DNA of 64,000 bases, taken from the NCBI RefSeq assembly GCF_045037415.1, contig NZ_CP173438.1; one strand, 5' to 3'. Origin of the DNA: Escherichia coli (GTDB lineage: Bacteria; Pseudomonadota; Gammaproteobacteria; Enterobacterales; Enterobacteriaceae). The position numbers were made by a program, and so were the translations under genes. Under the pieces are notes generated by a model. That model was not told the DNA's origin. It was given only the letters and a program-made list of their open reading frames with translations, and did not search any database. Positions 27,891 through 28,175 of the stretch are shown here, in pieces (positions within the stretch are counted from its first letter, which is position 1; the number at the start of each line of letters is the position of its first letter).

Positions 27891-28175
27891 GATCGTGCGA
27901 TCTACTGTGGATAACTCTGTCAGGAAGCTTGGATCAAACGGTAGTTATCCAAAGAACAACGATTGTTCAGTTTTTGAGTTGTGTATAACCCCTCATTCTG
28001 ATCCCAGCTTATACGGTCCAGGATCACCGATCATTCACAGTTAATGATCCTTTCCAGGTTGTTGATCTTAAAAGCCGGATCCTTGTTATCCACAGGGCAG
28101 TGCGATCCTAATAAGAGATCACAATAGAACAGATCTCTAAATAAATAGATCTTCTTTTTAATACCCAGGATCCCA
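27891..28175. other. oriC: chromosomal replication origin oriC (DnaA boxes R4-R3-R2-R5M-R1 and the R/M/L 13-mer unwinding element, 14 GATC sites)
   Basis: TGTGGATAA 27906-27914; TTATCCAAA 27945-27953; TGTGTATAA 27980-27988; TCATTCACA 28031-28039; TTATCCACA 28086-28094; three AT-rich 13-mers ending GATC at 28108-28120, 28123-28135, 28139-28151; located between mioC and mnmG. Confidence 0.95.

What the first reader, a model, noticed from the sequence alone, without database searches (positions are those of the whole stretch)
27891..28175. Complete oriC between mioC and mnmG
The mioC-mnmG spacer holds five DnaA-box 9-mers in the canonical order and orientation (R4 27906, R3 27945, R2 27980, R5M 28031, R1 28086), then three AT-rich 13-mers (28108-28151) forming the duplex unwinding element, and 14 GATC Dam/SeqA sites in about 285 bp. 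This is the chromosomal origin of replication. It lies on the opposite strand to the usual map, consistent with the whole window being reverse-complemented. From memory a couple of bases between R4 and R2 may differ from the K-12 sequence, but I cannot verify that without an alignment.
Basis: partly seen in the sequence, partly recalled or inferred. Interest (0 to 1): 0.45.

Follow-up and report, generated by a model that had tools for sequence, protein, structure and literature searches.

The report
E. coli chromosomal replication origin oriC
This stretch is the ordinary, textbook chromosomal replication origin (oriC) of Escherichia coli, in a common natural variant that differs from the laboratory strain K-12 at three bases outside the initiator-binding sites.

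Summary
Window 27891-28175 holds DnaA boxes R4, R3, R2, R5M and R1 at the stated coordinates and orientations. It also holds the three 13-mers of the unwinding element (28108-28151) and 14 GATC sites, where 1.4 are expected (P = 4e-10). The cumulative GC-skew minimum of the 64-kb window falls at 28294.

The window is the reverse complement of MG1655 3,889,799-3,953,884 and is collinear with it. It is 99.99% identical over 40.7 kb to an O25b:H4 strain.

Against the annotated K-12 oriC there are three substitutions, all between R4 and R2:
- 27938 lies in the 2-bp spacer between low-affinity boxes I3 and C2.
- 27961 and 27962 lie at the unconstrained centre of the Fis 15-mer next to C3.

No DnaA box, 13-mer, IHF site, GATC site or spacing is changed. 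Everything from 27963 to the mnmG start codon is identical to K-12. The exact R4-R2 allele occurs in 535 of 5423 complete E. coli genomes.

This is a known element in a known natural allele, so interest is low. The only open point is whether the Fis-centre change shifts initiation timing. Nothing here suggests it does.

The parts
27906..28151 (-). Minimal oriC, from the L 13-mer to box R4. This is standard oriC coordinates 23-268, where coordinate = 28174 minus window position.
   Evidence: Gap-free alignment to MG1655. The RefSeq oriC feature maps to 27920-28151. The limits of minimal oriC are as described in PMC4585315.
27906..27914 (-). High-affinity DnaA box R4, TTATCCACA.
   Evidence: Identical to K-12.
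27918..27959 (-). Right array of low-affinity DnaA-ATP sites: C1 27918-26, I3 27929-37, C2 27940-48, C3 27951-59. R3 (27945-53, plus strand) overlaps C2 and C3.
   Evidence: Site sequences come from my own knowledge. They were cross-checked against published properties: a 3-bp R4-C1 gap, 2-bp gaps within the array, and mismatch counts to TTWTNCACA of C3 = 4 and R3 = 1. All four 9-mers are identical to K-12. The one change, at 27938, is in the I3-C2 spacer.
27954..27979 (.). Two overlapping Fis 15-mers between C3 and R2. One is 27954-27968 (centre at oriC 213, overlapping C3). The other is 27965-27979 (centre at oriC 202).
   Evidence: Scan with GNNYANNNNNTRNNC gave 0 mismatches for the first and 1 for the second, in both the window and K-12 alleles. 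Location agrees with PMC8488378 and PMC4451416. Substitutions 27961 and 27962 fall on N positions 8 and 9 of the first 15-mer.
27980..27988 (-). High-affinity DnaA box R2, TTATACACA.
27998..28039 (+). Left array of DnaA sites: I2 27998-28006, I1 28009-17, tau2 28020-28, R5M 28031-39.
   Evidence: One search shows 2-bp gaps throughout, with mismatch counts I1 = 3 and I2 = 4 as stated in PMC4585315. Identical to K-12.
28055..28067 (-). IHF binding-site core, GATCAACAACCTG, in the R5M-R1 gap.
   Evidence: Only match to WATCAANNNNTTR with 2 mismatches or fewer in the gap. Position agrees. Identical to K-12.
28086..28094 (+). High-affinity DnaA box R1, TTATCCACA.
28108..28163 (-). Duplex unwinding element: 13-mers R (28108-20), M (28123-35) and L (28139-51), plus the flanking AT cluster 28152-63.
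   Evidence: exact K-12 13-mers, 77% A+T. (1-2 mismatches to GATCTNTTNTTTT).
27891..28172 (.). Cluster of 14 GATC sites, the Dam methylation and SeqA sequestration targets.
   Evidence: Role as described in PMC8488378.
27440..27883 (+). mioC, transcribed toward oriC.
   Evidence: ORF. Annotated in the 100%-identical records.
27372..27380 (+). Consensus DnaA box TTTTCCACA in the asnC-mioC spacer, the mioC promoter region.
   Evidence: The spacer has 0 differences from K-12. PMC4585315 describes one stringent-consensus box at the mioC promoter.
28181..28208 (+). Promoter-like site TTCTCA-16-TAGAAT in front of mnmG (gidA), reading away from oriC.
   Evidence: Consensus scan only. Identical to K-12.
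28262..30151 (+). mnmG (gidA).

Best explanation
This is oriC, the single chromosomal replication origin of Escherichia coli, in the allele carried by O25b:H4-type and related strains.

Established for K-12 and inferred here from sequence identity:
- DnaA stays bound to R1, R2 and R4 through the cell cycle.
- Fis sits between R2 and C3 and blocks IHF.
- As DnaA-ATP rises, it fills the right array from R4 through C1, I3, C2 and C3, and displaces Fis.
- IHF then bends the R1-R5M gap, and the left array R5M, tau2, I1, I2 fills.
- The 13-mers melt, and DnaB is loaded for bidirectional replication.
- After firing, SeqA holds the hemimethylated GATC cluster and prevents re-initiation.

Shown here:
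- Every one of these sites, and every spacing between them, is present and identical to K-12.
- The three substitutions lie in a 2-bp spacer and on unconstrained central positions of a Fis site.
- The strand-composition switch is located here.
For: - Gap-free alignment to the annotated MG1655 oriC, with 3 of 285 differences.
- Boxes, 13-mers and GATC cluster at exact positions and strongly over chance.
- Site map and spacings match published properties.
- mioC-oriC-mnmG context and 64-kb collinearity with K-12.
- Cumulative GC-skew minimum at 28294.
- Single chromosomal copy in 5424 of 5426 E. coli genomes, none on plasmids.
- The exact R4-R2 allele occurs in 535 genomes, all of them viable sequenced isolates.
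- oriC differs from K-12 less (0.8-1.05%) than the flanking genes do (1.3-2.5%).
Against: Nothing in the sequence argues against it. Function was not tested; it is inferred from identity to the experimentally characterised K-12 origin. Coordinates of the low-affinity sites rest partly on my recollection of the 9-mers, cross-checked only against published spacing and mismatch counts.
Confidence: 0.98

Rival explanations
1. It is oriC, but the three-base allele is functionally distinct. Under this reading, the change at the centre of the Fis site, with or without the I3-C2 spacer change, alters Fis occupancy or how easily DnaA-ATP displaces Fis. That would shift initiation timing or synchrony during fast growth compared with K-12.
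For: - 27961 and 27962 sit at the exact centre of the consensus Fis 15-mer that overlaps C3.
- Reviews place Fis displacement by the right DnaA array at the heart of the initiation switch.
- The allele is fixed in a large successful lineage, 535 of 5423 genomes.
Against: - Both changes fall on N positions of GNNYANNNNNTRNNC, so the consensus match stays perfect.
- G+C content of the central five bases is unchanged (ACTGT in K-12, ACGAT here).
- Position 27961 is G, T or C in different E. coli, which suggests weak constraint.
- The spacer length is unchanged.
- Published work reports that the oriC Fis site can be deleted without loss of viability, and that Fis effects at oriC are small or disputed.
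Confidence: 0.06
2. It is an inactive relic or a mobile copy of oriC, such as an integrated minichromosome, while the chromosome actually fires from another site.
For: None found.
Against: - One place per genome at the median, always chromosomal, never on a plasmid.
- Native mioC/mnmG flanks and 64-kb collinearity with K-12.
- The GC-skew switch is here.
- All functional sites are intact.
Confidence: 0.01

Closest known systems
E. coli K-12 MG1655 oriC (RefSeq NC_000913.3, 3925744-3925975; minimal 245-bp origin)
   Same: - Same locus between mioC and mnmG.
- Same 11 DnaA sites plus R3, IHF site, Fis sites, three 13-mers, AT cluster and GATC sites.
- All spacings identical.
- 282 of 285 bases identical, and 27963-28261 fully identical.
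   Different: Three substitutions: 27938 (oriC 236, I3-C2 spacer, C to A), 27961 (oriC 213, T to G) and 27962 (oriC 212, G to A). The last two are at the centre of the Fis 15-mer and break its perfect palindrome GAACAACAGTTGTTC without leaving the consensus.
oriC alleles of other natural E. coli (59-genome survey, PMC4585315; 5,426 complete RefSeq genomes searched here)
   Same: - The pattern matches the survey's conclusion that variation sits mainly in spacers while key binding sites and distances are conserved.
- The window is 100% identical over 285 bp to strains such as SK1144, F11 and O25b:H4.
- 1092 genomes are at least 99% identical over the 285 bp.
- 535 genomes are at least 99% identical over the 81-bp R4-R2 stretch, which means identical unless an alignment was trimmed.
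   Different: - Most genomes (4332 of 5424) differ by 3 or more bases over the 285 bp.
- In a sample of 12 alleles, A at 27962 was shared only with the closest relative, and 27961 was tri-allelic.
- The survey states the oriC Fis site is completely conserved, which does not hold for the 15-mer as defined here. This is probably a difference in how the site is defined.

Membership tests
Enterobacterial (E. coli-type) oriC | High-affinity DnaA boxes R1, R2 and R4 (TTATNCACA) in the canonical order and orientation. | tested here: met
   R1 is on the plus strand, R2 and R4 on the minus strand, with 0 mismatches each.
Enterobacterial (E. coli-type) oriC | [quoted passage not shown] | tested here: met
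   spacing table. All 9-mers are identical to K-12.
Enterobacterial (E. coli-type) oriC | AT-rich unwinding element with three 13-mers (GATCTnTTnTTTT) next to R1. | tested here: met
   77% A+T, with the exact K-12 13-mers.
Enterobacterial (E. coli-type) oriC | Dense GATC cluster for Dam methylation and SeqA sequestration. | tested here: met
   14 sites against 1.4 expected, P = 3.7e-10.
Enterobacterial (E. coli-type) oriC | IHF site between R1 and R5M, and Fis site(s) between R2 and C3. | tested here: met
   Consensus scans. Positions as described.
Enterobacterial (E. coli-type) oriC | Location between mioC and gidA (mnmG) at the switch of strand compositional skew. | tested here: met
   for the genes. 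for the skew minimum at 28294.
Enterobacterial (E. coli-type) oriC | DnaA-dependent autonomous replication and origin firing in vivo. | not testable with these tools
   Inferred from 98.9% identity to the experimentally defined K-12 origin, and from the presence of the identical allele in hundreds of complete genomes.

The most novel reading that the evidence does not exclude
The O25b:H4-type oriC allele (A at oriC 236 in the I3-C2 spacer, and TC replacing CA at oriC 212-213, the centre of the Fis site that overlaps C3) changes Fis binding or its displacement by the right-hand DnaA-ATP array. Under this reading, the lineage would have a slightly different initiation mass or synchrony during rapid growth.
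Probability: 0.05. Interest if true: 0.35.

Novelty: already known. Interest (0 to 1): 0.05.

Why it matters
It matters only as annotation. It fixes the replication origin and the replichore boundary of this contig, and it shows the window comes from an E. coli of the O25b:H4 type. oriC is one of the best-characterised DNA elements in biology. This allele is already present in hundreds of public genomes, and natural oriC variation of this kind has been surveyed (PMC4585315). The one modest point of interest is that the allele offers a natural test of how much the centre of the oriC Fis site matters.

Tried and rejected
- I looked for text-readable sequences and coordinates of the low-affinity DnaA sites and the Fis sites. 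Rozgaja 2011 (PMC3192301) and Hengen 1997 and 2003 (PMC147151, PMC275571) are not held. Sequence-string searches in PMC6158602 and PMC12342881 found nothing. Supplementary Figure S12 of PMC4585315 is held without readable sequence. I therefore used my own recollection of the 9-mers and checked it against published spacing and mismatch counts.\n- A literature search for work on oriC alleles specific to phylogroup B2 found none.\n- I considered a relic or mobile copy of oriC. I rejected it on copy number, flanking genes, collinearity and skew.\n- I considered that the substitutions hit a DnaA box. I rejected this because all boxes are identical to K-12.\n- In my notes I first placed the mioC difference at 27870. 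The correct position is 27866.

Full report
**Observation**

- The DnaA boxes are R4 (TTATCCACA, 27906-27914, minus strand), R3 (TTATCCAAA, 27945-27953, plus), R2 (TTATACACA, 27980-27988, minus), R5M (TCATTCACA, 28031-28039, plus) and R1 (TTATCCACA, 28086-28094, plus).
- The three 13-mers, read on the minus strand, are R at 28108-28120, M at 28123-28135 and L at 28139-28151. They match the K-12 sequences exactly.
- The interval 27891-28175 holds exactly 14 GATC sites. The density of the whole window predicts 1.4 (Poisson P = 3.7e-10). The richest 285-bp stretch starting outside 27400-28400 holds 7.
- Three of the eight perfect TTATNCACA matches in the 64 kb fall within 190 bp here. About 2.2 are expected by chance for the whole window.
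- The unwinding element is 77% A+T.

**Identity**

- A 701-bp query across the region is 100% identical to many complete E. coli chromosomes. It lies there between genes annotated mioC and mnmG.
- The RefSeq record of MG1655 carries an 'origin_of_replication oriC' feature at 3925744-3925975. In a gap-free alignment this feature corresponds to window 27920-28151.
- The whole window is the reverse complement of MG1655 3,889,799-3,953,884 and is collinear with it.
- It is 99.99% identical (4 mismatches in 40.7 kb) to an O25b:H4 chromosome.
- The cumulative GC skew of the window reaches its minimum at 28294. Mean skew is -0.053 to the left and +0.039 to the right.
- The sequence occurs once per genome at the median, in 5424 of 5426 complete E. 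coli genomes, always on the chromosome and never on a plasmid.

**Differences from K-12**

- Inside the finding there are three substitutions: 27938 (K-12 C, here A), 27961 (T, here G) and 27962 (G, here A). In standard oriC numbering (coordinate = 28174 minus window position) these are 236, 213 and 212.
- Everything from 27963 to the mnmG start codon is identical to K-12. That stretch includes R2, the left DnaA array, the IHF site, R1, the unwinding element and the mnmG promoter region.
- The asnC-mioC spacer is also identical to K-12, including its consensus DnaA box TTTTCCACA at 27372-27380.
- The mioC-mnmG spacer differs from K-12 by 0.8%. The flanking genes differ by 1.3-2.5%.

**Where the substitutions fall**

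I laid out the low-affinity sites from my own knowledge of the 9-mers and checked the layout against published properties.

- The R4-C1 gap is 3 bp (PMC4451416).
- The gaps within each array are 2 bp (PMC8488378 and PMC6070618).
- Mismatch counts to TTWTNCACA are I1 = 3, I2 = 4, C3 = 4 and R3 = 1 (PMC4585315).
- All of these hold for C1 27918-26, I3 27929-37, C2 27940-48, C3 27951-59, I2 27998-28006, I1 28009-17, tau2 28020-28 and R5M 28031-39.

On this map, 27938 is the first base of the 2-bp spacer between I3 and C2. Positions 27961 and 27962 lie 2-3 bp beyond C3, toward R2.

Reviews place two closely spaced Fis sites exactly there, one of them overlapping C3. A scan with the Fis consensus GNNYANNNNNTRNNC finds a perfect 15-mer at 27954-27968 (centre at oriC 213, overlapping C3 by 6 bp). 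It finds a one-mismatch 15-mer at 27965-27979 (centre at oriC 202). Both are found in the window allele and in the K-12 allele.

The two substitutions occupy positions 8 and 9 of the first 15-mer, both N in the consensus. They break the perfect palindrome of K-12 (GAACAACAGTTGTTC becomes GAACAATCGTTGTTC). They leave the consensus match and the G+C content of the central five bases unchanged.

**Population context**

- Over the 285 bp, 1092 of 5424 genomes are at least 99% identical to the window. The K-12 type scores 98.9%.
- Over 27910-27990, where a single mismatch drops identity below 99%, 535 of 5423 genomes match at 99% or better. This means they are identical unless an alignment was trimmed.
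- I aligned ten further alleles taken at even steps down the ranking, together with K-12 and the window.
- Among these 12 alleles, no high-affinity box, no M or L 13-mer and no spacing varied inside the origin.
- The changes that did fall inside sites were single bases in C1, R3/C3, I1 and tau1, at the edge of the IHF region, and in the outer base of the R 13-mer. The rest fell in spacers.
- Position 27961 is G, T or C in different strains. A at 27962 is shared only with the closest relative in the sample.
- This is the pattern Frimodt-Moller et al. reported for 59 genomes: variation mostly in spacers, with binding sites and distances conserved.
- That paper states the oriC Fis site is completely conserved. 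This does not hold for the 15-mer as I define it, and probably reflects a different site definition. I could not read their Supplementary Figure S12 to check.

**Mechanism**

The mechanism is the established one for K-12, as summarised in the reviews read.

1. DnaA is bound at R1, R2 and R4 throughout the cell cycle, and Fis is bound between R2 and C3.
2. Rising DnaA-ATP fills the right array from R4 inward and displaces Fis.
3. IHF then bends the R1-R5M gap, and the left array fills.
4. The 13-mers melt, and helicase is loaded.
5. After firing, SeqA sequesters the hemimethylated GATC cluster for about a third of the cycle.

What is shown here is that every cis element of that mechanism is present, intact and correctly spaced, and that the skew switch lies here. 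That the origin fires in this strain is inferred, not tested.

**Rivals**

- A functionally distinct allele acting through Fis cannot be excluded, but it has little support. The changes are on unconstrained positions, and the site is variable among strains. Published work reports that the oriC Fis site is dispensable for viability and that its effect is small or disputed. I give this reading about 5%.
- A relic or mobile copy of oriC is excluded by copy number, flanking genes, collinearity and skew.

**Verdict**

This is a correct identification of a textbook element in a common natural allele. It is already known, and its interest is low.

Noticed in passing
window 27961 (oriC 213): The central base of the Fis 15-mer that overlaps C3 is tri-allelic (G, T or C) among 12 sampled E. 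coli oriC alleles. PMC4585315 states that the oriC Fis site is completely conserved in 59 strains. This is probably a difference in how the site is defined.
   Followed up: partly
window 1-45344 versus 45337-64000: Identity to MG1655 drops from 98.3% on the ilv-to-pstA side to 96.05% on the pstB-to-tnaA side, although gene order is unchanged.
   Followed up: no
window about 45337-45344 (pstA-pstB spacer): About 85 bp present in the K-12 pstA-pstB intergenic region is absent here. The spacer is 182 bp in MG1655 and 90 bp in the near-identical O25b:H4 record.
   Followed up: no
window 1681-3327, minus strand: ilvG is an intact 548-aa ORF here. In MG1655 it is annotated as a pseudogene.
   Followed up: partly
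window 47212-47928, plus strand (bglG): The bglG reading frame stops about 144 bp before the position where the full-length gene ends (48072). The near-identical O25b:H4 record annotates bglG as a pseudogene with an internal stop.
   Followed up: partly
window 6858-12087, minus strand: A complete rRNA operon lies 16 kb from oriC and is transcribed away from it. It holds 16S, spacer tRNA-Glu, 23S, 5S and two further tRNAs (Asp and Trp in K-12). It corresponds to rrnC of K-12.
   Followed up: no
window 38455-38612, minus strand; 3347-3636, minus strand; 10199-10307, minus strand: Rfam matches above gathering score: sRNA STnc410 in the atpC-glmU spacer, 'Rev39 5'UTR' over the ilvL leader region, and StyR-44 next to the 23S rRNA gene.
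   Followed up: no
window 27911-27883, minus strand: A sigma-70-like consensus match (TCCACA-17-TATACT) overlaps box R4 and points toward mioC. It is a consensus match only.
   Followed up: no
window 27866 (mioC codon): One of 11 mioC differences from K-12 changes the C-terminal sequence from WVNLLK to WINLLK. The asnC-mioC spacer upstream has no differences at all.
   Followed up: no
E. coli genome collection, not the window: Two of 5426 complete E. coli genomes gave no match to the oriC region. About 25 gave only partial matches over the 285 bp, and at least some of these lie at record ends.
   Followed up: no
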